This document shows positions 11,874 through 59,910 of a stretch of DNA of 64,000 nucleotides, one piece after another. Position 1 is the first letter of the stretch. Every line of letters begins with the position of its first letter. The position numbers were made by a program, and so were the translations under genes. The DNA lies in contig JBJMOW010000005.1 in NCBI GenBank assembly GCA_045803545.1, forward strand, positions 480,001 through 544,000. The letters run 5' to 3'. This DNA is from Gemmatimonadaceae bacterium (GTDB lineage: Bacteria; Gemmatimonadota; Gemmatimonadetes; Gemmatimonadales; Gemmatimonadaceae). The notes beneath the pieces were generated by a model. The model was not told the DNA's origin, did not search any database, and saw only the letters and a list, made by a program, of their open reading frames with translations.

Positions 11874-11960
11874 TCGCGACAAAGGCAAACCCGGCGAAAG
11901 CCGGCGACGCAAAGCCACGAGGCTAACGCGCAACAGCGCCATGCCAGTCGAGCCGCCGAA
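11874..11960 (+). ncRNA. c-di-GMP-I (GEMM-I) riboswitch, canonical G20 type
   Basis: G-GCAAAC-CCGGC-GAAA-GCCGG-CGACGCAAAGCC...GGCTAAC...CATGCC...GCCGCCGA matches the GEMM-I P2, tetraloop, receptor and P3 layout. It ends 26 nt before the ATG at 11987. Confidence 0.92.
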
Positions 11961-11986: not shown

Positions 11987-13867
11987 ATGCGTACTTTTAT
12001 CCTCGCAGTGGCCGGCCTTGCTCTTAGTGTCGCTGCGTGTTCTTCATATGGCACTTCGGTCGTCGAAGTCAACAAGACTCGCGCTGCAGTGTCGTTAGTT
12101 TCCATTTCGCTTCCGCGTTCGCTGGAACAGGGCAAGACAGCTCGCGGAGTTGCGACGGTCAAAGACGCGAACGGAGCCATTCTCACCGACCGCTCAGTCT
12201 CCTGGTTCACTTCTAGCGCAGCGGTCGCGGGTGTTAACGACTCCGGCGAAGTAACAGCTGTCGCGCCAGGAACTGCCATCCTCACCGCGACGAGCGAAGG
12301 CGTGGCTGGACAAGCAACAATGTCTGTTCTCGGCGCGCCGCCAACACCAACGCCGGTTGCATCGGTTCAGGTAGCTATCGCACCCGCGTCAGTTGTGGTC
12401 GGCGCGAAAGCGCTTGCCACCGCGACGCTTCGAGACTCGAGCGGAAACACGCTTGGTGGCCGCAATGTTACTTGGCAGAGCTCGGATGCGAGAGTGGCAT
12501 CGGTCGTTGCGACTGGCGAAGTCACCGCGATTGCTGCCGGAACGGCGACAATCTCGGCGGTGAGTGAGGGCCAGACCGGCCTGGCAACATTGACAGTGTC
12601 GGTGCCCCCGCCTATTCCAGTTGCGTCCATTGCCGTCTCGCCGACGAGCGTCGCCATTGCAGTTAGTGGAACGTCGCAGTTATCGGCGACCACCCGAGAT
12701 GCCAACAACAACGTGTTGACGGGACGAACTGTGGTCTGGAGCTCCGCGAACGCGAGCATCGCCTCAGTATCGTCTTCTGGTCTAGTCTCCGCAGTCGCAG
12801 CGGGAACCGTGCAGGTTTCAGCTGCAAGCGAAGGAAAAAGCGCGTCGGCGACGATTACGGTTAACGCACCCGCGCCACCGCCAGTGTCGTCGGTTTCCGT
12901 TTCTCCGTCTTCGTCAAGCTTGCAGGTCGGCGACACGTTGCGGCTCTCAGCGGTCACCCGCGACGCCAGCGGTACGGTGCTGACGGGGCGAACGATTGCC
13001 TGGAGCACAAACAACGGTGGCGTTGCGACGGTCTCAGCTACTGGCCTCGTATCCGCTGTTGCGACCGGCACCGCTTCGGTCACGGCGACGAGCGAAGGAA
13101 AGTCTGCGTCAGCAACCATCAACGTCTCGGCTGCTGCACCACCGCCTCCGCCCCCTCCGCCACCGCCGTCGGGCATCTGGCGCTCAAACGAACCAGCTGG
13201 TCTGACGCCGATATCAGATCAACCGTTCTCGTCGATGCCGTCGAACGGTTGGCGCATGCAGAACAGTTCCTCGATCGTGGCTGACAACTCCGGCCCGCAG
13301 TCACCCGGAAGTATTCTGGATGTTCATTATGCGGTTGGTCTCGCTGGTGGTTTTGCACCGGGCCAGGCATGGGATCTCCTCCCAACGCCCGTCAACACCC
13401 TTTACTACGCCGTGTGGATGAAGTTCTCGGCAAACTGGGTGGGCCACCCGAGTCTGGTCAACAAGACTCTGTTCATTTCGCTCAACGACCAGAACCTGCT
13501 CTTCATTGCTGGTTATGGTGCTGGTAGCGATCCGCTGCTTTGCTCGATCGGGCTGCAGTCAATCCAGAATCTCGGAGTGTCGTCATTCTGGCACCCGAAT
13601 CTTGTTCCGAATGCGCATTTCACGCGCGGTCAGTGGGATCTGTTGGAGCTTGTCGTCAAATCCAACACTTCGGGCAATGCGGACGGCTCGGTCGATGTAT
13701 ACCTTAACGGCGTTCACATCACGAGTCGACCAGGGATTCAGTGGACGTCCGGCGGGTCCAACATCAACCAGGCTTCGATATCGCCGGTTTGGGGTGGCGA
13801 AGGAGCTGTGCTCGGTACCGCCATGGATCTGCAATTCGATCACGCGTACCTGAGCGGCAAGCAATAA
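11987..13867 (+). CDS. Lipoprotein: 4x Big_2 repeats, Pro10 linker, beta-jelly-roll (polysaccharide-lyase/ConA-like) domain
   Basis: GGGGAGG RBS and lipobox VAAC. Four W.SS...VA.V...G.V.A...G......SEG repeats. C domain has KFSANWVG and W...E....NT...ADG....LNG. Confidence 0.85.
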   Translation: MRTFILAVAGLALSVAACSSYGTSVVEVNKTRAAVSLVSISLPRSLEQGKTARGVATVKDANGAILTDRSVSWFTSSAAVAGVNDSGEVTAVAPGTAILTATSEGVAGQATMSVLGAPPTPTPVASVQVAIAPASVVVGAKALATATLRDSSGNTLGGRNVTWQSSDARVASVVATGEVTAIAAGTATISAVSEGQTGLATLTVSVPPPIPVASIAVSPTSVAIAVSGTSQLSATTRDANNNVLTGRTVVWSSANASIASVSSSGLVSAVAAGTVQVSAASEGKSASATITVNAPAPPPVSSVSVSPSSSSLQVGDTLRLSAVTRDASGTVLTGRTIAWSTNNGGVATVSATGLVSAVATGTASVTATSEGKSASATINVSAAAPPPPPPPPPPSGIWRSNEPAGLTPISDQPFSSMPSNGWRMQNSSSIVADNSGPQSPGSILDVHYAVGLAGGFAPGQAWDLLPTPVNTLYYAVWMKFSANWVGHPSLVNKTLFISLNDQNLLFIAGYGAGSDPLLCSIGLQSIQNLGVSSFWHPNLVPNAHFTRGQWDLLELVVKSNTSGNADGSVDVYLNGVHITSRPGIQWTSGGSNINQASISPVWGGEGAVLGTAMDLQFDHAYLSGKQ

Positions 13868-35800: not shown

Positions 35801-38800
35801 AATCCATCTGCGCCAACTGTCGCCACTGAGTTATTGCTGGAGCTCCAAGTGACTGTGCGACCGGTCAACACATTTCCGTTTGCATCTTTCGTGACGGCCG
35901 CGAGTTGTTGCGTCGGCGTAATACCGAGTACGAGACCCGCCGACGCAGGTGTCACGGTGACCGTTGCAACTGGAATCGGGTTGACGGTGATCGACGGCGT
36001 TGTCGCCGCTGGAGCTGTCTCACTCGTTGCAGTAATAGCGGCGGTACCAACACCGAGCGCCGTCACAGTAATTGTTGCGCCCGTTGAACTGCTTAGCGAG
36101 CTTGCCGCGCTCACGGTTAGAACTGCGCTATTGCTCGAGATCCAGTTAACGGTACGCCCGGGCAGAACATTGCCGTTCGCATCTTTGGGAGTCGCGATCA
36201 ACACCTGAGTGCTACCGACAGTCATCGGTGTACTTGCCGATGACAGCGTAACCGTCGTTACCGGTGCAACGGAGACGGTGATCGACGATGTGCCAGTTTT
36301 CGTCTCACTGGTCGCAGTGATAGTTGCAGTGCCAGCGGCCTGCGCTGCTACCAGTCCGTTGCCACCGACCGTCGCGACCGCGGTGTTGCTAGACGCCCAC
36401 GTCACGACCCGACCACTGAGCGTGTTTCCGTTGGTATCCTTAGTCACCGCCGTCAGTTGCTGAGTGGGTGTAATACCAAGCACCAAGCTCGCTGACGATG
36501 GCGTCACTGTTACTGTCGCCACTGGCGCGGGAGTGACAGTGATGGTCGCGCTGCCAGTTTGTCCCTCGCTGGTCCCTGTGATGCTCGCTGTACCGACTGC
36601 GCCAGCTGTTACAAAACCAGTGCTCGCATTAACGGTTACAACTGCAGTATTGCTCGAGCTCCAGGTGACAGCGCGCCCGGTCAGGACATTGCCGTTTGCA
36701 TCGCGGGTAGTAGCTGTGGCTTGAGAAGTTCCAACGGCAGTGATGCTCGCGGGATTCAACGCAACGGTTACGGTCGCAACCGGTGCGAGGTTAACAGTGA
36801 TCGAGCTTGTCCCGGTCTTACCCTCGCTAGTCGCTGTTACCGTCGCACTTCCAGCGCTGACAGCTGTAACCAAGCCATTCGCATCGACAGTAGCGACGGC
36901 AGTGTTGTTCGAGCTCCAGCTGACGACGCGACCAGTGAGAGTGTTCCCATTGGCATCTTGGGTAACTGCGGTCAGCTGCTGTGTCGGACTAATTCCGAGC
37001 ACCAAAGTGGCGCTGCTCGGCGTGGTTGTAACGGTGGCAACGGGAATCGGGTTGACCGTGATTGTTGGCGTCGTGGCTGCAGGTGCACTCTCACTGGTGG
37101 CAGTGATCGTGGCGGCGCCGACCCCGACAGATGTGACCGTAATAGTTGCTCCCGTTGCGCTACTTACGGAGCTCGCATTACTCACGGTGAGTACTGCAGG
37201 ATTGCTTGAGACCCAAGCCACTGTACGACCGGAAAGTGTATTGCCGTTTGCGTCCTTAGGCGTTGCCGTCAAAGTCTGAGTCGCGCTGACGATCATCGGC
37301 GTCGTCGGCGGGGAGAGCACGACAGTTGCTACTGGGGCTGGATTGACGGTGATCGAGCTCGTGCCCGTTTTCGTCTCACTGGTCGCCGTTATCGTGGTAG
37401 TTCCAGCGCTAACCGCGGTTACCAATCCATTCGCATCGACAGTAGCCACTGCGGTGTTACCGGAGCTCCACGTCACAAGGCGACCGGTGAGCACCGTACC
37501 GTTCACATCCTTGGGCACCGCCGTCAGTTGCTGCGTCGGAGTAACCACGAGCTGGAGCGTCGCTGACGCAGGCGTCACCGTCACGGTTGCAACAGGTGCA
37601 GGCGTAACCGTTAGAGTCGCACTGCCCGCCTGGCTTTCGCTCGTTCCCGTGATGCTCGCAGTGCCAACTGCGACGGCGGTCACGAGGCCGGTGTTGGAAT
37701 TCACTGTCGCAACAGCGGGGTTACTGGAGTTCCAGGTGACGACGCGCCCTGTGAGAATGATGCCATTCGCGTCCCGCGTTGTCGCTGTCGCCTGTGAGGT
37801 TCCAACAGCAGTGATGCTCGTCGGATTCAGTGTGACGGCGACAGTCGCAACGGGTGCGAGCGAAACCGTAATGGAAGCAGTGCCAGCCCTTCCTTCGCTC
37901 GTCGCGGTAATTGTGGCGCTACCGGCAGTCTGAGCCGTAACTAGGCCATTTGCGTCGACAGTTGCGACCGCGGTGTTGTTCGAGCTCCACGTGACGACGC
38001 GGCCGGTGAGAGTATTTCCATTGGCGTCTTTAGTCACAGCCGTCAGTTGCTGCGTGGGCGCGATTCCGAGTACGAGGCTGGCCGACGCCGGCGTGACCGC
38101 GACCGTTGCCACTGGAATCGGGTTGACACTGATACTCGGCGTTGTCGCCGCGGGAGCACTCTCGCTCGTCGCAGTAATAGTTGCAACGCCGACGCCGAGC
38201 GCGGTGATGGTGATGGTTGCGCCGCTCGCCGTGCTCAGGGACGTCGGCGCGCTGACAGTGAGCATTGCCGGATTGCTCGATACCCAAGTGACTGTCCGAC
38301 CCGACAGCGCGCTCCCGTTTGCGTCCCTCGGTGTAGCAGTCAGAACCTGAGTTCCCCCAACGATCATTGGCGTCGTCGGTGACGAGAGCGTTACGGCCGC
38401 CACGGGAGTCGGATTAACCGTGATCGAACTTGTTCCGGTCTTCGTTTCACTCGTAGCGGTTATTGTCGCCGTACCGGCGCCGACTGCGGTGGCCAGGCCG
38501 TTTGCATCAACTTGGGCCACTGCTGTGTTGCTCGAGCTCCAGGTAACCAAGCGCCCAGTAAGCGTGTTGCCGTTCGCATCCTTGGTGACTGCCGTCAGTT
38601 GGTGTGTCGGAGTGACGAGGAGCTGAAGCACCGCCGAGGAAGGCGAGACTACAACGGACGCGACCGGCGCCGGTGTCACGGTTAGCGTCGCACTGCCGCT
38701 CTTTCCTTCACTCGTAGCAGTGATGCTCGCAGTGCCCAGAGCAACCGCCGTGACCATGCCGGTGTTAACGTCGACTGTTGCAACAGCTGTATTGCTGGAG

Positions 38801-41800
38801 CTCCAGGTAATCGCGCGGCCAGTCAACACATTGCCGTTTGCGTCCCGCGTCACCGCTGTCGCTTGAGATGTTCCAACCGCCGTTATGCTCATTGGATTCA
38901 GTGACACGTCTACAGTCGTAACAGGTGCAACTGTGACGGTGATCGCAGATGTTCCGCTCTGACCCTCGCTTGAAGCGGTGATTGTTGCAGCGCCTGCGGC
39001 TACAGCCGTGACTAATCCATTCGCGCCAACTGTCGCTATTGAGTTATCGCTAGAGCTCCAGCTGACTGTGCGACCCGCCAGTACATTGCCGTTTGCGTCC
39101 TTGGCGACCGCTGCCAGCTGCTGCGTGGGTGTAATGCCGAGCACAAGGTTCGCTGATGACGGCGTTACTGTCACCGTCGCCACTGGCGCGAGGTTTACTG
39201 TGATCGTGCTCGTCCCAGTCTTGCCCTCGCTCGTGGCCGTTATGGTCGCACCGCCTGCACTCACCGCGGTCACGAGACCAGTATTTGGGTCGACTGTAGC
39301 GACAGCATTGTTGTTCGAGCTCCAAGTGACCACACGACCGGTCAAAGTGTTGCCGTTCGCATCCTTGGTGGCTGCTGTCAGTTGCTGTGTCGGAGTGATT
39401 CCGAGTACCAAAGTCGTGCTGCTCGGGGTAACTGTGACACCCGCAACCGAAGCCGCGGTGACGGTAAGAACCGCGCTGTCAGTCTCCCCTTCACTCGTCG
39501 CAGTGATGTTGGCTGTGCCTGGTGCAATGGCTGTCACGAGACCGGTGTTAGGGTCGACCGTTGCAATTGCTGTGTTGCTCGAGCTCCAGATTACGACGCG
39601 TCCAGTAAGTGGACGTCCCCTAGCGTCGAGCAGCATCGCCGTTGCCTGCGTCGTCTCAGTGGCGTTGATCGAGCTCGACGCCAGAGAAACTGTGACGGTT
39701 GCGACAGGAGCTTCCGTGACAGTGAGCGTCGCATTACCAGTCTTACCTTCGCTTGTTGCAGTCAGGGTGGTAGTACCAGGTGCGACTGCGGTCACCAGAC
39801 CACTATTGGGGTTAACCGTTGCGACGGCAGTATTGCTTGAAGTCCACGACACCACCCGTCCTGTCAGTGCGTTTCCGTTGCCATCGAATGTGCTCGCCGT
39901 TGCTTGCGACGTCTGTACTGCATTGATACTTGTCGGGTTCAGTGTAACTGTGACGGTTGCGACTGGCGCGAGAGCAACATTAATAGATGAGGTGCCTGAC
40001 TGACCTTCGCTGGTCGCCGTTATTGTTGCACTACCGGCGGCTACAGCACTGGCGAGCCCGCTGGCGTCGACATTGACGAAGTTCGTGTTGCTCGAACTCC
40101 AAGTGACCACGCGGCCGGTCAATACATTCCCCTGTGCGTCCTTGGTGACGGCGGTGAGTTGTTGCGTGGGCGTAATGCCCAACACGAGGTTCGCCGAAGG
40201 CGGCGTAAGGGTGACGCTGGCTACCGGCGCCGGTGTCACGGTCAGCGTCGCACTGTCGCTCTTTCCTTCACTCGTAGCAGTGATGCTCGCCGTGCCCGGA
40301 GCAACCGGTGCAATAAGACCCGTGATCGCGTCAACTGTCGCGACAGCGGTGTTAGTGGAACTCCACGTCACGACCCTGCCGGTCAAAACGTTGTTGTTAG
40401 CGTCAAGCGTTGTCGCCGTCGCCTGTGACGATCCGACTGCCGTAATGCTCGTCGGACTCAGCGCGACGGTCACTGTTGCGACGGGCGCAACCGACACAGT
40501 GATTGCAGATGTCCCGCTCTGCCCTTCACTCACGGCGGTGATTATGGCCGAGCCAGCAGCGACTCCCGTTACCAATCCATTCGCACTGACGCTCGCGGCA
40601 GCGGTATTGTTCGAGCTCCAGTTGACCGTTCGTCCGTTAAGGACGTTGCCGTTGGCATCTTTCGTTACAGCACTAAGCTGTTGAGTGGGTGTTATACCGA
40701 GGACCAGACTGGCCGATGGCGGCGTAACTGTGACTGTAGCAACGGGAACCGGGTTGACGGTGATCGAAGGTGTCGTTGCCGCCGGAGCAGCTTCGCTGTT
40801 GGCAGTGATCGTAGCTGTTCCGACCGCAGCTGCCGTCACGGTGATCGTCGCGCCACTTCCAGTGCTTACTGAGGCAGCAGCACTGACCGACAACACGGCT
40901 GGATTGCTTGAGACCCAGTTCACGGTCCGGCCAGACAAGATGTTGTTGTTCGCATCCTTCGGGACGGCTGTCAGCACTTGAGAACTTCCGACAATCATCG
41001 GAGTTGCCGGCGCAAAAAGCGTTAGCGTTGCGACCGGCGGAACGCTAACCGTGACCGATGATGTGCCGCTTTGAGCCTCGCTGGTGGCGGTAACCGTTGC
41101 AGAACCAGCGGCAACGCCGGTTACCAATCCACTAGTGTTGACCGTCGCAATCGCGGGGTTGCTCGAACTCCAAGTCACTGTGCGAGCGGGCAAGACGTTG
41201 CCGTTCGCGTCCTTCGTAACTGCCGAGAGTTGTTGTGTCGGAGTGATGCTCAATACCAGAGTCGTAGTCGCAGGCGTGACAGTGACCGTCGCAACTGGAA
41301 TCGGGTCGACGGCGATGCTCGGCGTTGTCGCCGCCGGTGCGGTCTCACTCGTGGCGGTGATCGTCGCCGTGCCGATACCAACTGCCGTAACAGTGATCGT
41401 CGCTCCGGTCGACGTACTAACCGAGGACGGTGCGCTCACGGAGAGCACCGCCGGATTACTTGAAATCCAGTTTACAGCGCGGCCAGAAAGGGCGTTCCCG
41501 TTTGCATCCTTGGGCGCGGCGGTCAGCACCTGAGTGTTGCCAAGGATCATTGGGGTCATTGGCGCCGACAGCGAAACAGTCGCGACCGGCGCCGCGTTGA
41601 CGGTTATCGAGCTCGTCCCGGTCTTTGTCTCACTCGTCGCAGTAATGGTCGCCGCGCCCACACCGACCGCGTTTACCAATCCGTTCGCATCGACAGTCGC
41701 GACGGCCGTATTGCTCGATCTCCAACTCGCTGCGCGACCAGCGAGAATGTTGCCATTGGCATCCTTTGTTACCGCGGTGAGCTGTTGTGTCGGTGTTGCG

Positions 41801-44800
41801 ACGAGCTGAAGTGTCGCCGAAGGCGGACTAACCGTAACGGTTGCCACGGGTGCCGGTGTAACTGTCAGCGTTGCACTGCCAATCGTTCCTTCGCTGGTAG
41901 CAGTGATGCTTGCAGTACCTGAAGCGACTGCGGTCACCCACCCTGTATTCGCGTCGACAGTGGCAACGACGGCATTGCTCGAACTCCAGGTTACCAGCCT
42001 ACCGCTCAGCGTGTGGCCGTTGGCATCAAGGGTTGTCGCGTTCGCTTGCGAGGTTCCAACTGCACTGATACTCGTCGGATTGAGAGACACCGTGACCGTT
42101 GCTACCGGCGCCAGGGAAACGGTTATCGACGAAGTGCCGCTCTTTCCTTCGCTTGTGGCACTAATTGTTGCAGAACCGGCGCCGAGAGGGGTGACAAGGC
42201 CATTGACGTCTACAGTTGCAACTCCAGTATTACTCGAGTTCCACGTAATAATTCGACCGCTTAGAGTGCCCCCGTTTGCATCGGCGGTAATAGCCGTCAA
42301 TTGTTCTTCAGCCGAGATCCCGAGAACGAGACTCGCAGATGGCGGCGTGACGGTCACGGTCGCGACAGGCGGAGGCGTCACAGTTAGCGTGGCGCTTCTG
42401 CTCACTACTTCGCTAGTCGCACTGATGGTCGCAGTGCCGGTTGCATGCGCGGTCACCAGACCATTTGCATCGGCGGTCGCGACCGTTGCGTCGCTAGTGC
42501 TCCACGTTACGACGCGTCCAGTCAGCGTACGTCCCCTCGCGTCGAGCAGCGTTGCGGTTGCTTGGGTGGTCTGCACGGCGTTGATCGAGCTCGAAGCAAG
42601 ACTGACAGAGACACTCGCGACTGGCGCCGCGGTGACGGTTAGGGTGGCCGAGCCGATTTTCCCTTCGCTCGTCGCCGTGACGTGAGCGGTGCCTTCACTT
42701 TCCGCGGTCACAACGCCAGTGCCAGACACTGTTGCAACGGAAGTATTGTCTGATGCCCAGCTCACCGATCTTCCGGTCAGCGTACCGCTGTTAGCATCGA
42801 ACGTGGTGGCACTGGCTTGAGTTGTCCCGACCGCCGTGATCGAGCTTTGAGCGAGCGAAACGGTAACTGACGCCACTGAAACCGGAACAACAGTAATCGT
42901 CGCGCCGGCACTCTTTCCTTCGCTTGTCCCAGTGATGGTCGCAGTACCGACTGCGTGACCACTCACTACCCCGTTCGCATCGACTGTCGCAACGGCGTCG
43001 TTATTGGAAGACCAAGTGACGTCTCTTCCTGACAGCTCGTTGTTATTCGCATCGCGCAGAACCGCGCTCGCAGTAGTCGTTTGACCCACTTCGATCGAGG
43101 AGGCCGTCAGCGAGATCGCGACAGATGCAACGGGGGCGAGCGTGACGGTGATCGAGGCAGTGCCGCTAATGCCTTCACTCGTAGCTGTAATTATCGCTGA
43201 ACCAGCAGCGTGAGCCGTGACGAGTCCGCTTGCATCGACTGTGGCCACCGTAGCGGTGTTCGAAGACCAGGTGACAGTACGCCCCGTGACTACTCTGTTC
43301 TGCCCATCTTTCAGCGTTGCTGTCAGTGTCTGCGTGCTACCCTGCACTACTGTCGGCGATGCAGGGGTAACCGCCACCGCCGCTACCGGCGCATCTGTAA
43401 CAGTGAGCGCCATTGAGCCCGTTTGACCCTCGCTCGATGCGACGATGTGGGCCGTGCCCGAAGCGACAGCCGTGACCGCGCCCGTCGACGAAACTGTGGC
43501 GGTCGCATGGTTGTCAGAATTCCAGATGACCGTTCGTCCACTTAGGGTTCGCCCCTTGGCGTCTTTCAACTCCGCGCTCGCTTGCGTCGAACCGACTGCG
43601 GTGATCGAGCTTGCGGCCAGCGACACACTGACAGAAGCAACCGGCGCCTGCATTACCGACAGCGTCGCAGAGCCTGTCTTTCCTTCACTTGTGGCTGTGA
43701 TGCGCGCCGTGCCTTCAGATTCAGCGGTGATCACTCCCGTACCCGACACAGTGGCAACCGCTGTGTTGTCGGACGCCCAGATAACGGCCCGGCCGTTGAG
43801 CGCAGCGCCATTCGCGTCGAGCGTTGCTACTGTTGCTTGAGTCGTCCCAATCGCATTGATAGAGGTCTCTGCGAGCGAGACCGTAACCGAAGCTACTGGC
43901 GCCAGGCTGACGGTAATTGACGCGGCGCTGCCAACTCCTTCAGCCGTCGCGGTGATCGTCGCGGTCCCAGCTCCATGAGCGGTGACCAATCCGTTCGCAT
44001 CAACCGTTGCAACAGACGTGTTGCTCGACGTCCAGACGACAGTTCTCCCAGTTAGTGCACGATCCTCGGCGTCTTTGATAGTCGCAGTAAGCGGCTGCGT
44101 CGCTCCCTCGACAACGCTCGCCGATCCAGGTGTTACTGTTACGCTCGCGACTGGCGCGTCGGTAACCGTGAGCGCCGCACTTCCGGTTTGCCCTTCACTC
44201 GTCGCCGTGATGTGAGCCGTGCCAATCGCGACTGCTGTTACTGCCCCGGTAGATGAAACCGTGGCGACAGCGGTGTTGTCCGAGCTCCAGGCAGCAGTGC
44301 GTCCCGTGAGCGCGCGCCCCTTGGAGTCTTGGAACGTTGCGGTCGCTTGAGTGGTTCCGACTGCGCTAATCGAGCTTGCCGCGAGCGACACGCTCACAGT
44401 CGCCACCGGCGCTGCGGTCACAGCGATATTCGCGGAGCCGGTCTTGCCTTCGCTCGTCGCAGTGATGTGAGCGGTGCCTTCGGCAACCGCGGTCACCAAA
44501 CCGCTACTCGAGACGGTGGCGACCGATTCGTTGTCGGAAGCGAATGTCACCGCGCGTCCGGTCAGCGTTCCACCGTTCGCATCGAATACAGTGGCGGTAG
44601 CTTGCGTCGTTCCGACTGCCGTAATCGAGCCCGCGCTCAGTGCGAGTGTGACGCTCGCGACGGGTACTGGTACAACTGTAATTGTTGCGGTCGAACGCTG
44701 GCCTTCACTCGTTGCGCTGATTGTCGCCGATCCGGGCGCGAGGGCGGTCACCACTCCCGTGGTGCCATCAACTGTGGCGACTCCACCGTTATCCGATTGC

Positions 44801-45915
44801 CACGCGATTGCGCGTCCAGTGACTACGGTGCCCGAGCGATCTTTCAAAATTGCCGAGGCTTGGCTTGTCCCTCCAACGGTAATGGTGGATGGAGTCAGAC
44901 TCACTTCCACCGACGCAACGGGAACGGGAGTGACAGTTATCGCCACGCTCGAACTCACGCCGCCTACGGTTGCCGTTATTGTCGCTGAACCGGGGCTGAC
45001 CGCCGAGAGCATCCCGTCAGGTGTTACTGTCGCTACCGTGTTTGCGGCTATCGCCCAGGTGACGGTGCGATTGATGAGAACAGCTCCACCTGCATCTGTC
45101 GCCACTGCCACCAGTTGTTCATGATCGCCGACGACAAGAGATGGAATTACGTCAGGATGATCCGGCGGTCCCCTGATCGCGACCTGGGCAACCGGCTCGG
45201 GAAGCAATACAGCGTATGTACTGAAATGAGAGATGTCGCCCGTTACTATGTGATTGGTGAGGTCGACACTTCCTGTAGTAATCGGCTGCCAACCCGCGGT
45301 TGCTCCAGAGTAACGCAGTTGCAGGGCTGCTTCTTCCGTTCCAGCAGGGAGCTTCTTCGGATCGTATTTGATTTTGAGCGTGACGGGTTTGGCGAAGGAT
45401 GTCCCCGTCGGCCCGAAGTCAAATGCAGTGCCCTGCACAACTTTCGAGTCGCTTCCGAAACCACTCGACGGAGTAACGGTGACGTCAGTGGTGGCGTCTA
45501 CGGCCTGGGCAGGAACCAGAAGTTGGATTACGCCCGACGCCGCGCTGAGCGTCGTCCCGGCGGTTGTAACGACGCCGCCATCGACTACAGTGACATTCGC
45601 AGACGCGCTCTTGCCGTCGGCAGATGCCGTGACGGTGGCTGCCCCCGGCGTGACTGCCGTCACCATGCCGGACGGTGATACTGTCGCAATCGCGATGTCC
45701 GATGTCGCCCACGAGATCGGGCGCGACAATGGCCGACCGTCCCGGTCTTTAGCCGTAGCAGTCAGCTGCAGGGTAGCCGCAGGCACGAGCGACATTCCGA
45801 CTTGCGACAAGTCTATGAGGTCGGTCGTTGGCGGCGGCGCTGTCGGACTTTCTCCGCAGGACCCGATCGTCCACCCAAGTGCGATAGATCCGATCGTGCG
45901 GTACAATCTTTTCAT
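32848..45915 (-). CDS. Giant 4355-aa lipoprotein: Big_2, ZU5-like domain, 42x Big_2, GH-A-like TIM barrel, C-terminal beta domain
   Basis: Uninterrupted 13-kb ORF with lipobox IGSC. 43 Ig repeats counted by eye. The head domain aligns motif for motif with the 28722 and 46100 ORFs. Confidence 0.92.
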   Translation of the reverse strand: MKRLYRTIGSIALGWTIGSCGESPTAPPPTTDLIDLSQVGMSLVPAATLQLTATAKDRDGRPLSRPISWATSDIAIATVSPSGMVTAVTPGAATVTASADGKSASANVTVVDGGVVTTAGTTLSAASGVIQLLVPAQAVDATTDVTVTPSSGFGSDSKVVQGTAFDFGPTGTSFAKPVTLKIKYDPKKLPAGTEEAALQLRYSGATAGWQPITTGSVDLTNHIVTGDISHFSTYAVLLPEPVAQVAIRGPPDHPDVIPSLVVGDHEQLVAVATDAGGAVLINRTVTWAIAANTVATVTPDGMLSAVSPGSATITATVGGVSSSVAITVTPVPVASVEVSLTPSTITVGGTSQASAILKDRSGTVVTGRAIAWQSDNGGVATVDGTTGVVTALAPGSATISATSEGQRSTATITVVPVPVASVTLALSAGSITAVGTTQATATVFDANGGTLTGRAVTFASDNESVATVSSSGLVTAVAEGTAHITATSEGKTGSANIAVTAAPVATVSVSLAASSISAVGTTQATATFQDSKGRALTGRTAAWSSDNTAVATVSSTGAVTAVAIGTAHITATSEGQTGSAALTVTDAPVASVTVTPGSASVVEGATQPLTATIKDAEDRALTGRTVVWTSSNTSVATVDANGLVTAHGAGTATITATAEGVGSAASITVSLAPVASVTVSLAETSINAIGTTQATVATLDANGAALNGRAVIWASDNTAVATVSGTGVITAESEGTARITATSEGKTGSATLSVMQAPVASVSVSLAASSITAVGSTQASAELKDAKGRTLSGRTVIWNSDNHATATVSSTGAVTAVASGTAHIVASSEGQTGSMALTVTDAPVAAVAVTPASPTVVQGSTQTLTATLKDGQNRVVTGRTVTWSSNTATVATVDASGLVTAHAAGSAIITATSEGISGTASITVTLAPVASVAISLTASSIEVGQTTTASAVLRDANNNELSGRDVTWSSNNDAVATVDANGVVSGHAVGTATITGTSEGKSAGATITVVPVSVASVTVSLAQSSITAVGTTQASATTFDANSGTLTGRSVSWASDNTSVATVSGTGVVTAESEGTAHVTATSEGKIGSATLTVTAAPVASVSVSLASSSINAVQTTQATATLLDARGRTLTGRVVTWSTSDATVATADANGLVTAHATGTATISATSEVVSRSATLTVTPPPVATVTVTPPSASLVLGISAEEQLTAITADANGGTLSGRIITWNSSNTGVATVDVNGLVTPLGAGSATISATSEGKSGTSSITVSLAPVATVTVSLNPTSISAVGTSQANATTLDANGHTLSGRLVTWSSSNAVVATVDANTGWVTAVASGTASITATSEGTIGSATLTVTPAPVATVTVSPPSATLQLVATPTQQLTAVTKDANGNILAGRAASWRSSNTAVATVDANGLVNAVGVGAATITATSETKTGTSSITVNAAPVATVSLSAPMTPMILGNTQVLTAAPKDANGNALSGRAVNWISSNPAVLSVSAPSSVSTSTGATITVTAVGIGTATITATSETAPAATTPSIAVDPIPVATVTVTPATTTLVLSITPTQQLSAVTKDANGNVLPARTVTWSSSNPAIATVNTSGLVTGVAAGSATVTATSEAQSGTSSVTVSVPPVATLTLFAPATPMIVGSSQVLTAVPKDANNNILSGRTVNWVSSNPAVLSVSAAASVSTGSGATITVTAAAVGTATITANSEAAPAATTPSITVNPVPVATVTVTPPSASLVLGITPTQQLSAVTKDANGNVLNGRTVNWSSNNTAAASVSANGLVTGVAAGSAIITAVSEGQSGTSAITVSVAPVATVTVALSPTSITAVGSSQATATTLDANNNVLTGRVVTWSSTNTAVATVDAITGLIAPVAPGTASITATSEGKSDSATLTVTPAPVASVTLTPPSANLVLGITPTQQLTAVTKDAQGNVLTGRVVTWSSSNTNFVNVDASGLASAVAAGSATITATSEGQSGTSSINVALAPVATVTVTLNPTSINAVQTSQATASTFDGNGNALTGRVVSWTSSNTAVATVNPNSGLVTAVAPGTTTLTATSEGKTGNATLTVTEAPVATVTVSLASSSINATETTQATAMLLDARGRPLTGRVVIWSSSNTAIATVDPNTGLVTAIAPGTANITATSEGETDSAVLTVTAASVAGVTVTPSSTTLVLGITPTQQLTAATKDANGNTLTGRVVTWSSNNNAVATVDPNTGLVTAVSAGGATITATSEGKTGTSTITVNLAPVATVTVTPSSANLVLGITPTQQLAAVAKDANGNVLAGRTVSWSSSDNSIATVGANGLVTAVAAGAATITASSEGQSGTSAITVTVAPVTTVDVSLNPMSITAVGTSQATAVTRDANGNVLTGRAITWSSSNTAVATVDVNTGMVTAVALGTASITATSEGKSGSATLTVTPAPVASVVVSPSSAVLQLLVTPTHQLTAVTKDANGNTLTGRLVTWSSSNTAVAQVDANGLATAVGAGTATITATSETKTGTSSITVNPTPVAAVTLSSPTTPMIVGGTQVLTATPRDANGSALSGRTVTWVSSNPAMLTVSAPTSLSTASGATITITALGVGVATITATSESAPAATTPSISVNPIPVATVAVTPASASLVLGIAPTQQLTAVTKDANGNTLTGRVVTWSSNNTAVATVDANGLVTAQTAGSATITATSEGRAGTASITVSLAPVATVAVTLNPTSITAVGTSQATATTRDANGIILTGRVVTWNSSNPAVATVNSNTGLVTAVAVGTASITGTSESQAGSATLTVTPAPVATVTVTPASATLQLVVTPTQQLTAVPKDVNGTVLTGRLVTWSSGNTAVATVDANGLVTAVSAGTTTITATSETKTGTSSITVNPAPVATVVLSPPTTPMIVSATQTLTATPKDANGNTLSGRTVAWVSSNPAVLTVSNASSVSSATGATITVTSVGVGAATITATSESAPAATTPTITVNPIPVATVTTTPSSATLVLGISPTQQLTAVTQDANGNTLTGRVVSWSSNNTAVATVDANGLVTAVSAGSATVTATSEGKTGTSSITVNLAPVATVTVALNPASITAVGTSQATATTRDANGNVLTGRAVTWSSSNTAVVTVNASTGFVTAGAVGTASITGTSEGQTGSATITVTPAPVATVTVTPSSASLVLGITPTQQLTAVTKDTNGNTLSGRVVTWASSNTAVATVGGNGLVAAQAAGTATITATSETKTGTSSITVSVAPVTTVTLSSASTPMTVGSTQVLIATPKDANGNVLPGRTVNWISSNSAVLTVSAASSLSSSTGATITVTALGVGTAAITATSETAPAATTPSITVNPIPVATVTVTPASAGLVLGITPTQQLAAVTKDANGNVLTGRTVTWSSSNNSVATVGADGLVTAVAAGGATIAAASEGQSGTSAITVTLAPVATVNVALNPMSITAVGTSQANATTLDANGNNLTGRAVTWSSDNLAIATVDANTGLVTAVAVGTANINAMSEGKTGSATLTVTQAPVATVSVSLAASSITAVGTTQATATLQDSKGRTLSGRSIVWTSDNTAAATVSSAGAVTAVATGTAHITATSEGQTGSATLTVTDAPVASVVVSPASANLVEGATQQLTTALTDAQVRPLTGRTVVWTSNNDASATVDANGLVTAHTAGTATITATSEGVSGTSSITVTQVPVASVTVSLAQGSISAVGTTQATATTLDATGGTLTGRSVVWSSDNEGVATVSNTGIVTAEAVGTAHITATSEGQTGSSILTVTAAPVASVTVTIAQGSITAVASTQATAELKDSRNRVLTGRTIVWASDDHAIATVSSTGIVTAVAEGTAHITATSEGQTGSATLTVTQAPVATVTVSPSAPSILVGATEQLTITLKDAQGRVLTGRVVTWSSDNTAAATVSGTGLVTAVAAGAATITATSETKTGTSIVTVTAATTTATLLHRSTRNPRYFENATGQIIYLTGSHTWSTLRDNGTVDPPAAFNYTAYLDFLTQRNHNFFRLYAWEQDRWTSEYANDYWFSPSAYARTGPGVALDGKPKFDVSQFNQAYFDRMRQRVIEAGSRGIYVSVMLFNGWSVTTKPGATANNPWNGHPFNSANNINGIDGDTNGDGSGLESQTLTIPSVTALQEAYVRRVIDAVGDLDNVLYEISNESDGSSRDWQYHMIQVIRDYEATKAKRHPVGMTAMWPNGSDTDLYNSDADWISIAGTLHTPVTANGSKVLVTDTDHICGVCGDVEWVWKSFVKGHNPILMDGYDGAAIGVGAEDYDVNDPVWEAIRKNMGYTLSYAQRMDMANAVPHGDLVLSELTGYALAKPGEQYLVYINSEGAVTLNLSALTGTLNVEWFNPATGVATPAGTIAGGPSVQLIAPFSGPAVLFLH
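34190..45200 (-). repeat. Tandem array of 42 Big_2-coding units (about 255-290 nt each), mostly diverged at DNA level
   Basis: Recurrent PVA.V.V...DA.G..L.GR.V.WSS.N..VATV...G.VTA...G.A.ITATSEG unit. Boundaries are approximate. Confidence 0.9.
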
Positions 45916-46099: not shown

Positions 46100-47749
46100 T
46101 CAGTGATGCAGATACACGGTCGCCAGGCCGGAGAATGGAGCGGTTAGAGTGACGTGGGTCCCGCCTGCGGCCTTGCCACCATCCACTGTCACAGCGGTGG
46201 ACGGATTGAACCATTCGACGACAAAACTGCCCGTCGTGCCGCTCAGATCCAGATCCAGATTCCCGCCGCCAGGAAGAACCGCGAGATATTCGCTGCCCGC
46301 ATCTGCAAGGCAATAACCGCTTGACGCGAGGTCACCGCGTGGGACCGCGCGCGCCAGGTTCATCCGCATCGCGTAACTCCTCACGTATCCCATGTTTTTG
46401 CGAATGTCCTCCCACTTTGGATCGGCAGGATTGTACGCCGCATCTGACACCCCGGGGCTATTGTCGTAGCCGTCCATCAACAGCGTATTGTGCCCTCGAA
46501 CGAACGCTTTCCAGACCCAGGCGGCGTCTCCACAAATTCCGCACAAATGGTCTGTATCAGAGAGGTCTACTTTCTTTCCATCAGCTATCGCTGGGTTGCT
46601 GACGTCGCCATTCATCGACACCCAATCCGCTGCGCTGTTGAGAACCTCGGCGTTAGTTCCGGGCCAGGGAATCGTCATGCCGATGGGATGCTGCTTCGGT
46701 TTCTGCGCCTCATACGACCGAAGGAAATCGATCAGGTGGTACTGCCAGGCATCGCCGGACGGATCGCTCTCGTTGCTGATTTCGTAAATGACGTTGTCCT
46801 GGTCATTGACAGCGTCGACGACTGCTTTCACATAGGCTTCCTGCAAAGCCGTGATCGCCGGCATCGTTAGGGTCTGCGTTTCGCGACCTGACGCATCGTT
46901 GTTCGGGTCACCGTTGATCCCGTTGATGTTGTTTGCGGTGTTAAACGGGTGGGCCAGCCACGGGTTCGCCCTCGCATTCCCTGGCTTAGTCTCGACACTC
47001 CAGCCATTGAACAGCATTACAGACACGTAGATTCCGCGCGTTCCGGCGTCGATTACGCGTTGGCGCAGTCGTGCGAAATACTGGGGGTTGAGTTTCGTCA
47101 GGTCGAACTTGAGACCGCCGTCCGCGGCCGCCCCGGGCCCCGTTCTCTCATAGAGAGTCGGCGAGAACCAATGACTGTAACTGACTTCGTCACTCCAACG
47201 CGCCTGCTCCTGAAGCCAGAGTCTAGTGAAGTTGTGATTGTGCTGTTGCAGAAAATTCAGGTACGCGATGTTGTCGAACGCTGGCGGAGGATTCGTCGTT
47301 CCATCATCCTGGACGTTCTTCCAATAGTGCGAACCGGTAAGGTAGACAATCCGACCCGCGGGATCTGCGAAATACCTCGGGTTGTCTGTGCTCACGTGCA
47401 AAGGGCCTGTGGCGGGAGCCGACGCCGCTGATACCGTCAGCGTCGTCGAATCGCTGAATCCGCTCGCTTGTACGCGGATTTTCACGAGGCCGGCACTTAC
47501 TCCAACTGCGGTCCCGAAGTCATTAATCGTGGCCACCGCGGCGTTGCTGCTTTGCCAGCTGACATCACTAATACTGTGACTGGTGCCGTTTTCAAATGAC
47601 CCGTTCGCGCGGAACACCACGGTTTCGCCAATTCGGATGGTGGCAGCGATGGGCGCAATCGTGACGGCGTTCAAGCGAATTTGATCGCTCGTGCTGCTGC
47701 AGGCGGCGAGCACCAGCAATGCGATGGTGCTTAGCCCAGGACTTCTCAA
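46100..47749 (-). CDS. Lipoprotein: 1x Big_2, GH-A-like TIM barrel, C-terminal beta domain
   Basis: Lipobox LAAC; NPRYF, GSHYW, HNFTRL, YEISNE, SDTDH and VEWFNP motifs; TTG start just downstream of wzt. Confidence 0.87.
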   Translation of the reverse strand: MRSPGLSTIALLVLAACSSTSDQIRLNAVTIAPIAATIRIGETVVFRANGSFENGTSHSISDVSWQSSNAAVATINDFGTAVGVSAGLVKIRVQASGFSDSTTLTVSAASAPATGPLHVSTDNPRYFADPAGRIVYLTGSHYWKNVQDDGTTNPPPAFDNIAYLNFLQQHNHNFTRLWLQEQARWSDEVSYSHWFSPTLYERTGPGAAADGGLKFDLTKLNPQYFARLRQRVIDAGTRGIYVSVMLFNGWSVETKPGNARANPWLAHPFNTANNINGINGDPNNDASGRETQTLTMPAITALQEAYVKAVVDAVNDQDNVIYEISNESDPSGDAWQYHLIDFLRSYEAQKPKQHPIGMTIPWPGTNAEVLNSAADWVSMNGDVSNPAIADGKKVDLSDTDHLCGICGDAAWVWKAFVRGHNTLLMDGYDNSPGVSDAAYNPADPKWEDIRKNMGYVRSYAMRMNLARAVPRGDLASSGYCLADAGSEYLAVLPGGGNLDLDLSGTTGSFVVEWFNPSTAVTVDGGKAAGGTHVTLTAPFSGLATVYLHH

Positions 47750-57943: not shown

Positions 57944-59743
57944 TCAAGGAATTCGAGCGGTCGCTATTCGGATGTTGTCGACCCACATGGACTGATCGAC
58001 GGGCGACCCATCGCCAATGTAGGGGGCGATCAGGAACTGATTGAACTGAAGGCCTGGATGCGCGGCGGTCCGGAAAAGAATGTCGTGGCGGTCAATGATC
58101 AGGGTACCGTTGAACCAGTACTGCATAACGCCATCGGCCTGGCCGACACCGTTCACTATCGTGTTGAGCTGGAAGTACGCCTCGACAAAGTTCCAGTCGT
58201 TTTTGTAGCCTGGTCCTGGATTGGGCTGGAACACCACCGGCCCGCGAAGCTGTTTGTCGTTGTAGTAATTCGAGCCGTCGTCGAAGCATTCAGACGGCAT
58301 GTTGGTTTCTACCATACCATTGCATCCGCCGGTCGATCGATCCTCGGTGACTCCCACCAAGTTGTGCGGTAGCGCGCCGTAGCTGTAATTGATCGACTTG
58401 TTATCCTGCATCGCCAGGCGCGGGATGCCACCATTCTGATAGTTCTGCTCGACGTACAGGACCATCCACCCGAACGACGGACCATCGTAATCGCCGTCGA
58501 GGGTGCTCATGATCTGAAACTCGTGCGGATGGTAGAGATGGTTCGAACCGACCCAGTTTGCACTGTACTTGACGTAGTAGCTCAAATACACCGAGCTCGT
58601 CGCGGCAAATTTGTGGCGCTGTGAGCCGCCAGTTGTAGGCGTTGTCGCGCCAGGGAGGAAGTGATACTGCGCCGACGCAGTGCTACCGGTGATGTGCTCC
58701 GCCGTTGAGATGACCACGCTCGTGTTGTCGTACCAACCACGCGAAGCGAGGCTCGCGTCCTCGAAATTCTCCTGGAAGAGGAGTGTGCCACCCGGCGGGG
58801 GTGGCGGGGGTGGGGGTGGAGGTGCCGCGTTTACCGTGACAGTAGATGTGCCGGACTTGCCGCCGGTGCTCGCAGTGATCGTAGCTGACCCTGCGGCAAC
58901 ACCAGTCACAACGCCCGCTGATGTTACGGTCGCGACGCTTGGCTTGCCGCTCGACCAGGTAATAGTTTGGCCGCTCATGACGTTGCCCTGAGCGTCTTTG
59001 ACAGTCGCGCTGAGTGTCACAGTGGCGCCGATATCGACTTGTGCGCTGGCCGGCGAAACCGTGACCGTCGTGACTACCGGAGGTGGCGGAGGTGCCTGGG
59101 TTACAGTGAGTGATGCCGTTCCCGACTTGCCTGCACACGTTGCCGTTATGGTTGCTGTCCCTGCGGACACGCCACTCGCAACACCGTTTGCGTTCACGGT
59201 TGCAACAGAGAGAGCGCTGCTAGACCATGTGACGGTTTGGCCCGTCATAACAGAGCCCTGCGCATCCTTGACCGTGGCGCTTAACGCGACCGTCGCTCCT
59301 GTTTGCACCGTTGGTGTGGCCGGCGAAACACTTACTGTCGCTACTGTTTGTGGTGGAGGCGATGGCGCCATCACCTTGACGTGTGCAGTTCCACTTTTGC
59401 CTTTCGTGGACGCACTTATCGTCACGTCTCCAGCCGCCACACCTGCAACGATCCCGGTGGCACTCACTGCTGCAAGCGATTGGTCGCTGCTGGACCAAGA
59501 CAAGGTTTGATCGGTCATGACCGTGCCGCTTTGATCCTTGACTTCCGCGGAGAGCGCGGTAGTTGTGCCCACATCTATCGATGTGGTTGAAGGCGTCACG
59601 TTGATCGTTGTTACGACAGGAGTGGGGTCTGGCGTCGGTTCCGTAGTCGTGCCGCCCGCTTCGCCGCAAACCCACAAAATCGGAAGTGCGAACACCCACG
59701 AGCTTCGGACTACGCGACGAGCAATTGCTCTTGTATTTAACAT
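57944..59743 (-). CDS. Secreted/lipoprotein: 3x Big_2, Pro10 linker, beta-jelly-roll (polysaccharide-lyase-like) domain
   Basis: GGGAG RBS before ATG 59743 and a signal with an atypical lipobox (LWVC). C domain has KYSANWVG, W...E.....NT.....ADG....FNG and VDN motifs. Confidence 0.85.
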   Translation of the reverse strand: MLNTRAIARRVVRSSWVFALPILWVCGEAGGTTTEPTPDPTPVVTTINVTPSTTSIDVGTTTALSAEVKDQSGTVMTDQTLSWSSSDQSLAAVSATGIVAGVAAGDVTISASTKGKSGTAHVKVMAPSPPPQTVATVSVSPATPTVQTGATVALSATVKDAQGSVMTGQTVTWSSSALSVATVNANGVASGVSAGTATITATCAGKSGTASLTVTQAPPPPPVVTTVTVSPASAQVDIGATVTLSATVKDAQGNVMSGQTITWSSGKPSVATVTSAGVVTGVAAGSATITASTGGKSGTSTVTVNAAPPPPPPPPPPGGTLLFQENFEDASLASRGWYDNTSVVISTAEHITGSTASAQYHFLPGATTPTTGGSQRHKFAATSSVYLSYYVKYSANWVGSNHLYHPHEFQIMSTLDGDYDGPSFGWMVLYVEQNYQNGGIPRLAMQDNKSINYSYGALPHNLVGVTEDRSTGGCNGMVETNMPSECFDDGSNYYNDKQLRGPVVFQPNPGPGYKNDWNFVEAYFQLNTIVNGVGQADGVMQYWFNGTLIIDRHDILFRTAAHPGLQFNQFLIAPYIGDGSPVDQSMWVDNIRIATARIP

Positions 59744-59826
59744 GCGAACTCCCGCATTTCGTTCGTAGTGGTGGCGGAAGTGCCGTGACAACAAAATGCC
59801 GCCGCGGCACCGATACCTGTCGGATT

Positions 59827-59910
59827 CGCTGGCGGCTCGGCTGGCGTAGCGTGAGCTTTAGCCCCGTGGCTCTGCGACACCGTCTTTCGACGGCTTTGCT
59901 CTGAGCAGCG
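59827..59910 (-). ncRNA. GEMM-I riboswitch variant with A at the G20-equivalent position (candidate 3',3'-cGAMP sensor)
   Basis: CGCUG-CUCAG-A-GCAAAGCCGUC-GAAA-GACGGUGUCGCAGAGCCACGGGGCUAAAGCUCACGCUACGCCAGCCGAGCCG-C-CAGCG. It has a perfect 5-bp P1, a GAAA tetraloop with receptor, and the A47 and C92 equivalents. Confidence 0.85.

What the first reader, a model, noticed from the sequence alone, without database searches (positions are those of the whole stretch)
59790..59910. A20-variant GEMM-I riboswitch: candidate 3',3'-cGAMP sensor paired with a c-di-GMP sensor in one locus
Seen: aligned by hand to the V. cholerae Vc2 aptamer (G14-CACAG-G20-GCAAAC), this RNA reads G-CUCAG-A-GCAAAG, so it has A at position 20 (window 59900) with A47 and C92 kept. 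The riboswitch at 11874 has G20. Known: A20 marks the GEMM-Ib riboswitches of Geobacter that prefer 3',3'-cGAMP, made by Hypr GGDEF enzymes. Inference: two paralogous matrix proteins may be split between two second messengers, implying cGAMP signalling in a lineage where I am not aware of it. A small hairpin with a U-tract at 59790-59810 contains GGCGGC, complementary to the aptamer's 3' GCCGCC, which suggests a transcriptional OFF switch (weak). Some A20 aptamers are promiscuous.
Basis: partly seen in the sequence, partly recalled or inferred. Interest (0 to 1): 0.87.

Follow-up and report, generated by a model that had tools for sequence, protein, structure and literature searches.

The report
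Riboswitch variant hinting at cGAMP signalling
An RNA switch in front of a surface-protein gene of a Gemmatimonadaceae bacterium carries the change that lets such switches sense the rare messenger cGAMP; this genome shows no enzyme to make it, but many relatives carry both the switch and a likely cGAMP-making enzyme, which hints at an unreported signalling pathway.

Summary
In detail: an Rfam c-di-GMP-I aptamer at 59828-59910 (-) has A20 (59900), A47 and C92; the copy at 11874 has G20. It belongs to a conserved Gemmatimonadales subfamily (A20 with G48) upstream of Ig-like (Big_2) genes. The switch is ON, not OFF: in 15 of 15 homologues the ligand-free fold is a long terminator burying C92/C93. 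This genome (93% complete) shows no cGAMP synthase or cGAMP-type phosphodiesterase signature, and only 3 of 22 same-family carriers have a Hypr-signature GGDEF. In a sister family, a MASE1-GGDEF protein carries both Hypr signatures, occurs in 30 of 51 variant carriers against 11 of 100 others, and A20 and G20 aptamers sit in tandem in one leader (21 cases). That co-occurrence is mostly one clade and not significant on a tree. Best reading: a bispecific aptamer that reads c-di-GMP here and also cGAMP in Hypr-bearing relatives. No ligand binding or enzyme activity was tested.

The parts
59827..59910 (-). GEMM-I (c-di-GMP-I) aptamer, A20/G48 subfamily; P1 59910-59906 pairs with 59831-59827; G14=59906, A18=59902, A20=59900, G21=59899, C46=59874, A47=59873, G48=59872, C92=59832, C93=59831
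Evidence: cmscan 57.1 bits; alignments; pair counts.
59798..59836 (-). Ligand-free terminator stem: 59836-59831 pairs with 59803-59798, 59829-59827 with 59806-59804, capped by an inner hairpin 59823-59810; it uses C92, C93 and the 3' strand of P1
   Evidence: Minimum-energy fold in 15 of 15 homologues, -21.2 to -28.1 kcal/mol for the stem alone; 97.8% of cells paired in 38 sequences, one pair with a two-sided change in 2 sequences
59788..59797 (-). U-rich tract after the terminator stem; imperfect in this copy, longer U runs in most close homologues
   Evidence: Sequence, alignment, terminator scan
59749..59753 (-). Probable ribosome-binding site before the ATG at 59743
   Evidence: Sequence; inference
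57944..59743 (-). Controlled gene, 599 aa: N-terminal signal with Cys (probable lipoprotein, inferred), three Big_2 Ig-like domains, proline linker, C-terminal domain of about 285 aa resembling polysaccharide lyase 14-like proteins
   Evidence: Pfam, translation; Atlas cluster with PF21294 in 43% of members, score 0.96, a lead only; no solved relative by sequence
11874..11960 (+). Canonical G20/A47/A48/C92 GEMM-I aptamer, of the subtype that follows the A20 aptamer in the tandem leaders of relatives; no terminator, ribosome-binding site close behind
   Evidence: cmscan 74.7 bits; comparison with tandem copies
11987..13867 (+). Paralogous Big_2 protein with a weak Polysacc_lyase_14 match, 626 aa, behind the G20 aptamer
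   Evidence: Pfam, BLASTP 32% over 582 aa to the A20-controlled protein

Best explanation
A transcriptional ON riboswitch of a Gemmatimonadales-wide GEMM-I subfamily marked by A20 and G48. Without ligand, the aptamer's 3' strand (including C92 and C93) pairs with GGCGGY and forms an intrinsic terminator; ligand bound during transcription locks C92 and P1, blocks the terminator and lets the Ig-like surface-protein gene be transcribed (fold and conservation shown, switching inferred). The aptamer most likely binds both 3',3'-cGAMP and c-di-GMP, as Vc2 G20A and Cbe 1-2 do (inferred). In this genome, where no cGAMP synthase is detected, it would read c-di-GMP, at a higher threshold than the four G20 aptamers. 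In relatives with the MASE1-GGDEF Hypr-signature enzyme the same RNA would also read cGAMP, and the A20-then-G20 leaders would combine two inputs.
For: A20, A47, C92 present; A20 invariant in 38 of 38 aligned homologues (selected with A20-biased searches). The pair below the ligand is G21-C46 in 38 of 38, as in the Rfam consensus, whereas the selective Gs1761 has C15-G40 there (PMC6274999, passages). Vc2 G20A binds c-di-GMP at 53 nM and cGAMP at 120 nM; Cbe 1-2 at 30 and 463 nM, through a protonated adenine (PMC6140456, passages). The A20 form is kept where no Hypr enzyme is seen: 19 of 22 carriers in this family, 6 of 6 further carriers checked domain by domain, one of them a single-contig genome, 21 of 51 carriers in the sister family not matched by the MASE1-GGDEF query. 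For cGAMP in relatives: Ser at the GacA Ser348 site in 23 of 24 MASE1-GGDEF proteins and Tyr or His, never Arg, at the Tyr304 site in 32 of 32 tabulated, against Arg in 121 of 131 Asp-type domains; 21 A20-then-G20 leaders. ON direction; same design as the Geobacter pilM switch (PMC9262584, passages).
Against: No binding data. G48 differs from the tested bispecific aptamers and tracks A20 (25 of 26 A20 copies have G48, 11 of 11 G20 copies have A48, in 37 of 41 RF01051 hits of five genomes), so it may sharpen selectivity for cGAMP. A20-then-G20 tandems are easier to explain by two distinct ligands than by one. G000 is 93% complete and lacks a detectable rpoB, so a synthase may lie in the missing part. 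This copy's U tract is weak and can be buried in another hairpin.
Confidence: 0.5

Rival explanations
1. A cGAMP-selective sensor, as the first reader proposed but ON. In this genome it is fed by an undetected synthase (unassembled, or not Ser-type), or it is an orphan that came with the gene cluster and stays mostly off.
For: A20 with G48 as a fixed pair; Hypr double signature in relatives; 30 of 51 against 11 of 100 co-occurrence, and 11 of 13 genomes with three or more copies carry the enzyme; A20-then-G20 tandems, 7 of them in three Hypr-bearing genomes; patchy spread in this family, 23 of 401 genomes; assembly gaps.
Against: No Ser-type intact GGDEF in G000 or in the three same-genus carriers G010, G281, G302; SMODS in 1 of 21 carriers; no Rxx(Q/N) HD-GYP among 9; an orphan RNA should decay, yet it is 83% identical by column across 15 close homologues, terminator included; 20 of 23 double-positive genomes on the tree fall in one clade and independent pairs give median p 0.25.
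Confidence: 0.3
2. A c-di-GMP-only, affinity-tuned variant. A20 lowers affinity so that transcription needs high c-di-GMP; tandems set two thresholds for one ligand, and the overlap with Hypr enzymes is shared ancestry.
For: Cbe 1-2 prefers c-di-GMP 15-fold; most carriers in this family lack a Hypr enzyme; tree test not significant; A20-A20 tandems also occur (11 cases).
Against: Every A20 aptamer described in the passages read binds cGAMP to some degree; where a double-signature Hypr enzyme exists, an A20 aptamer would be exposed to its product.
Confidence: 0.13
3. A20 with G48 retunes the alpha pocket to another purine dinucleotide (another cyclic dinucleotide or a linear one), made by an unrecognised enzyme.
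For: G48 is nearly fixed with A20, and position 48 (A42 in Gs1761) contacts the alpha base (PMC6274999); carriers without any known cGAMP synthase keep the variant.
Against: A47 and C92 are invariant, so the beta base should be G; no candidate enzyme travels with the RNA in the loci read.
Confidence: 0.07

Closest known systems
c-di-GMP-I (GEMM-I) riboswitch, Rfam RF01051; V. cholerae Vc2
   Same: Fold, P1-P3, A47, C92, G21-C46; scores above the gathering threshold.
   Different: A20 for G20 and G48 for A48; A49.C90 and C52.A87 mismatches, which the window's G20 copy shares.
GEMM-Ib / c-AMP-GMP riboswitches of Geobacter (Gs1761, Gm0970, pilM)
   Same: A at the alpha-base position; transcriptional ON design in which the terminator sequesters the ligand-pairing C (PMC9262584); Hypr-signature enzymes occur in the same order of bacteria.
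   Different: G21-C46 instead of C15-G40; G48; controls Big_2 surface proteins in polysaccharide loci, not cytochromes or pili; no synthase found in this genome.
Bispecific A20 aptamers: Vc2 G20A, Clostridium beijerinckii Cbe 1-2, Desulfobacca acetoxidans cluster 3
   Same: A20 in an otherwise GEMM-I-like pocket.
Hypr GGDEF cGAMP synthases (GacA, GSU1937, GacB, Bd0367)
   Same: The relatives' MASE1-GGDEF proteins have Ser at the Ser348 site, an Asp-centred GGDEF motif 23 residues on, and Tyr or His at the Tyr304 site.
   Different: Membrane MASE1 input domain; His at the 304 site is not among the residues named as tested in PMC6456294; activity untested; not found in G000.
Tandem riboswitch logic gates (PMC9481103)
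   Same: Two aptamers with separate expression platforms in one leader.
   Different: A c-AMP-GMP with c-di-GMP-I pair is not in the mixed-ligand table seen.

Membership tests
c-di-GMP-I (GEMM-I) structural class | Score above the RF01051 gathering threshold over the full model | tested here: met
   57.1 bits against 35, model 1-87
c-di-GMP-I (GEMM-I) structural class | P1, P2, P3 with covariation; A47 and C92 | tested here: met
c-di-GMP-I, canonical c-di-GMP sensor | G20 | tested here: not met
   A at 59900
GEMM-Ib (cGAMP) riboswitch | A at position 20 with A47 and C92 | tested here: met
GEMM-Ib (cGAMP) riboswitch | Lower-P2 pair as in the selective Gs1761 (C15-G40) | tested here: not met
   G21-C46 in 38 of 38; Gs1761 pair from PMC6274999. 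PMC9262584 says lower-P2 changes affect selectivity; the primary paper was not held
GEMM-Ib (cGAMP) riboswitch | Binds 3',3'-cGAMP in preference to c-di-GMP | not testable with these tools
   needs probing or ITC
GEMM-Ib (cGAMP) riboswitch | A cGAMP synthase in the same genome | tested here: not met
   9 GGDEF domains: 7 with Asp, 2 degenerate; SMODS 0; DncV-like 0, but that family rang in no control; two NTP_transf_2 proteins are AadA-like and LemA/TPM-linked. Assembly 93% complete
Hypr GGDEF (relatives' MASE1-GGDEF proteins) | Ser/Thr at the GacA 348 site with a GGDE[F/Y] motif | tested here: met
   23 of 24 proteins; site fixed by alignment to 6D9M
Hypr GGDEF (relatives' MASE1-GGDEF proteins) | Non-Arg cross-dimer residue at the 304 site | tested here: met
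   23 Tyr and 9 His of 32; criterion from PMC6456294
Hypr GGDEF (relatives' MASE1-GGDEF proteins) | Makes cGAMP | not testable with these tools
   needs LC-MS or a biosensor assay; PMC6456294 notes that Ser alone did not convert canonical enzymes
Transcriptional ON switch | Terminator mutually exclusive with the ligand-bound aptamer | tested here: met
   computed fold in 15 of 15; pairing kept in 38 sequences, weak covariation, 20 of 500 shuffles as high
cGAMP-specific HD-GYP phosphodiesterase in G000 | Rxx(Q/N) motif | tested here: not met
   8 RxxR and 1 RxxS among 9; criterion from bioRxiv 10.1101/600031

The most novel reading that the evidence does not exclude
Gemmatimonadales run a 3',3'-cGAMP signalling pathway not found in the papers searched: a membrane MASE1-GGDEF Hypr synthase, an A20/G48 riboswitch subfamily that switches on Ig-like surface proteins of polysaccharide loci, and tandem leaders in which a cGAMP-sensing transcriptional switch precedes a c-di-GMP-sensing translational one, a natural two-messenger gate. 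The window's two aptamers are the two halves of that gate, on separate paralogues.
Probability: 0.45. Interest if true: 0.82.

Novelty: new variant of a known kind. Interest (0 to 1): 0.66.

Why it matters
In the papers read, Hypr-cGAMP signalling is worked out in Geobacter, Myxococcus and Bdellovibrio, and PMC8835794 asks whether cGAMP riboswitches exist in other bacteria. This subfamily gives concrete test material: an aptamer with a second fixed change beside the pocket (G48) that may decide selectivity, a candidate synthase with a new input domain, and A20-then-G20 leaders that would be a cGAMP plus c-di-GMP gate. Carriers with and without the synthase form a natural experiment on whether A20 predicts the ligand. 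If the aptamer proves to sense only c-di-GMP, it is a caution against calling cGAMP sensors from A20 alone.

Tried and rejected
OFF switch by the small hairpin: it folds at 0 to -5.3 kcal/mol in 15 homologues, against -21 to -28 for the long stem. A Hypr motif scan by short DNA pattern was noisy: 81 of 401 genomes matched; of 50 loci fetched, 15 held a true Ser-GGDEF; it served only as a lead, and no full family-wide Hypr census was completed. G008 is a chance match inside a gene and was dropped (24 to 23). The first rpoB tree had 15 rows read from the wrong strand and was redone. Switch direction of the G20 subtype: folding of 8 leaders gave no consistent change in ribosome-site access; unresolved. 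RNA runs: 15 held 5-11% of the words; four laid show relatives' pieces only, so nothing on expression or termination. PF21654 rang in no control genome, so its blank is uninformative. The A20/G48 count of 202 of 203 is biased by the search pattern and is not used. No aptamer lies within about 1.5 kb of the MASE1-GGDEF genes in 34 loci. Three look-ups for the primary 2015 papers failed.

Full report
Observation. cmscan of the whole window gives two Rfam matches, both RF01051: 11874-11960 (+, 74.7 bits) and 59828-59910 (-, 57.1 bits). At the G20 column the second has A (59900) and the first G. A47 and C92 are kept; position 48 is G in the second. The genome holds five RF01051 matches, four G20 and this one A20. 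Close relatives of the downstream protein are nearly all Gemmatimonadaceae by record title. The window is a polysaccharide locus with glycosyltransferases, Wzm/Wzt, Wzy_C and five Big_2 proteins. The A20 aptamer precedes a 599-aa Big_2 protein (57944-59743), 32% identical to the one behind the G20 aptamer.

A conserved subfamily. Of the 42 loci, 17 were scanned; 14 of 17 have the A20 aptamer ahead of the gene. A pattern finds it in 23 of 401 genomes of the family after one chance match is dropped (one of the 23, G029, is unpublished). A covariance model finds it in 51 of 151 genomes of a sister family at E up to 1e-11 (these hits were not all read one by one, but all those read above 60 bits had A20). 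A metagenome scan stopped at its limit with 123 stretches. Of 60 downstream proteins scanned (60 of 96 listed), 47 match Big_2. On 38 aligned copies A20, A47, G48 and C92 are invariant and the helices covary; these copies were picked by A20/G48-biased searches. In an unbiased set, 37 of 41 RF01051 hits of five genomes, 25 of 26 A20 copies have G48 and 11 of 11 G20 copies have A48.

Mechanism. The six core pairs hold in 97.8% of cells over 38 copies, with a G-C to A-U change in two; as covariation this is weak, 20 of 500 shuffles as high. Since C92 pairs with the ligand (PMC6140456), binding and termination exclude each other: an ON switch, built like the Geobacter pilM switch (PMC9262584). This is inferred from folding, not measured. 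The U tract of this copy is imperfect and can be buried in another hairpin.

Ligand. A20 does not by itself mean cGAMP selectivity. Vc2 G20A binds c-di-GMP and cGAMP at 53 and 120 nM, Cbe 1-2 at 30 and 463 nM, and Gs1761 at 660 and 0.53 nM by probing (PMC6140456). The pair under the ligand here is G21-C46 in 38 of 38 copies, like the Rfam consensus and unlike C15-G40 of Gs1761 (PMC6274999). The effect of G48 is unknown.

No synthase in this genome. Nine GGDEF domains were found by two routes. Seven have Asp at the site that aligns to Ser348 of GacA (6D9M); two are degenerate and lack the motif. SMODS gives no match. The two NTP_transf_2 proteins are AadA-like and LemA/TPM-linked. Of nine HD-GYP-type domains eight have RxxR and one RxxS, none the Rxx(Q/N) of cGAMP hydrolases. 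The assembly is 93% complete and gives no rpoB match, so absence is not shown. Among 22 carriers of this family (G029 left out), 145 domains were read (9 of G000 and 136 of the 201 matches in the other 21, the rest mostly weak); Ser with an intact motif occurs in 3 genomes of one genus. SMODS is in 1 of 21. One non-carrier of the window's genus has a Ser enzyme with Arg at the 304 site.

Synthase candidates in relatives. A MASE1-GGDEF family is in 22 of 151 genomes sampled across the phylum, 20 of them in the sister family. It has Ser in 23 of 24 proteins and Asn in one. At the cross-dimer site, where PMC6456294 reports Arg in 94% of diguanylate cyclases and Tyr in GacA, it has Tyr in 23 and His in 9 of 32, against Arg in 121 of 131 Asp-type domains. 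In the sister family 30 of 51 variant carriers have it against 11 of 100 others (the 11 include the Asn protein and one unpublished genome; Ser was not checked in all 41). Kin are not independent: on an rpoB tree of 80 of the 151 genomes, 20 of 23 double positives lie in one clade, and independent pairs go the same way 3.2 times and the other way 0.3 times, median p 0.25. Six carriers checked domain by domain have no Ser enzyme. So the link is suggestive and not established.

Tandem leaders. In 236 loci there are 21 distinct leaders with an A20 aptamer and terminator followed within 60-107 bases by a G20 aptamer, 7 in three Hypr-bearing genomes and 14 on metagenome contigs, plus 11 A20-A20 pairs and one G20-A20 pair. 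None lies in the loci from the window's own family. The seven G20 partners read in genomes are of the same subtype as the window's 11874 copy. This is the best support for two ligands, though two thresholds for one ligand would also fit. The mixed-ligand table of PMC9481103 does not list this pair (passages).

Novelty and limits. Searches for Gemmatimonad + riboswitch + c-di-GMP (2 papers, unrelated by abstract), Hypr GGDEF + Gemmatimonad (0), MASE1 + GGDEF + cGAMP (3 listed, not read) and tandem + c-di-GMP + cGAMP riboswitch + logic gate (0) found no description. The primary 2015-2016 papers and their supplements were not seen and may list such sequences. What I read: PMC6140456 parts 1-2 of 7 and passages; PMC8835794 part 1 of 6 and passages; passages of PMC5888326, PMC6274999, PMC9262584, PMC6456294, PMC5473149, PMC5041473, PMC9481103, PMC9140294 and bioRxiv 10.1101/600031. 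One earlier AI note on another genome raised the same ligand question; it is not evidence.

Verdict. A real, conserved GEMM-I variant and an ON switch. The two-messenger split is unsupported in this genome, but a cGAMP pathway in relatives is plausible and directly testable. New variant of a known kind; interest 0.66.

Noticed in passing
L474, L508, L506, L476, L507, L473, L557, L579, L578, L552 (sister-family genomes): A GGDEF family with an N-terminal Cys-rich, FeS-like region has Asn at the Hypr site and Tyr or Phe at the cross-dimer site; it is present in 4 of the 6 Ser-negative carriers checked and could be an unrecognised promiscuous cyclase. Not seen in G000.
   Followed up: partly
G404 C3:4761-5163 and C36:1983-2385; G439 C2:1094984-1095416: Triple tandem riboswitches: A20-A20-A20, and A20-A20-G20, each A20 copy with its own terminator.
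   Followed up: partly
L044 (G000 C4:547489-548530), 3.5 kb past the window end; L056: A G20 aptamer directly precedes a REC plus degenerate-GGDEF protein, and a paralogue lies 2 kb away; the other two G20 aptamers precede a GH6 protein and a peptidase M15 protein. In all three the ribosome-binding site follows the aptamer at once, suggesting translational control.
   Followed up: partly
L054 (G000 C4:3561-4880): GGDDF-motif protein with Asp at the Hypr site, also seen in genus relatives and the sister family; GSU1937 shows that GGDDF can be active.
   Followed up: no
window 32848-45915 (-): 4355-aa protein with 42 Big_2 matches and a C-terminal DUF6298-like domain, beside two shorter paralogues (28722-32066, 46100-47749).
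   Followed up: no
G000: No tblastn match to RpoB in the assembly despite 93% completeness.
   Followed up: no
L330-L332 (another class of the phylum); G497 C1:3455940: G20/A48 aptamers with the same P1 and terminator design as the A20 subfamily, a possible ancestral state; and an unrelated A20/A48 aptamer in G497.
   Followed up: no
L153, L156, L154, L163, L155: PAS-GGDEF and PAS-GGDEF-EAL proteins with Ser at the Hypr site in family members that lack the A20 pattern; two have Tyr, two Arg and one Ala at the cross-dimer site.
   Followed up: partly
L733:925-1731: AadA-like nucleotidyltransferase gene in G000.
   Followed up: no
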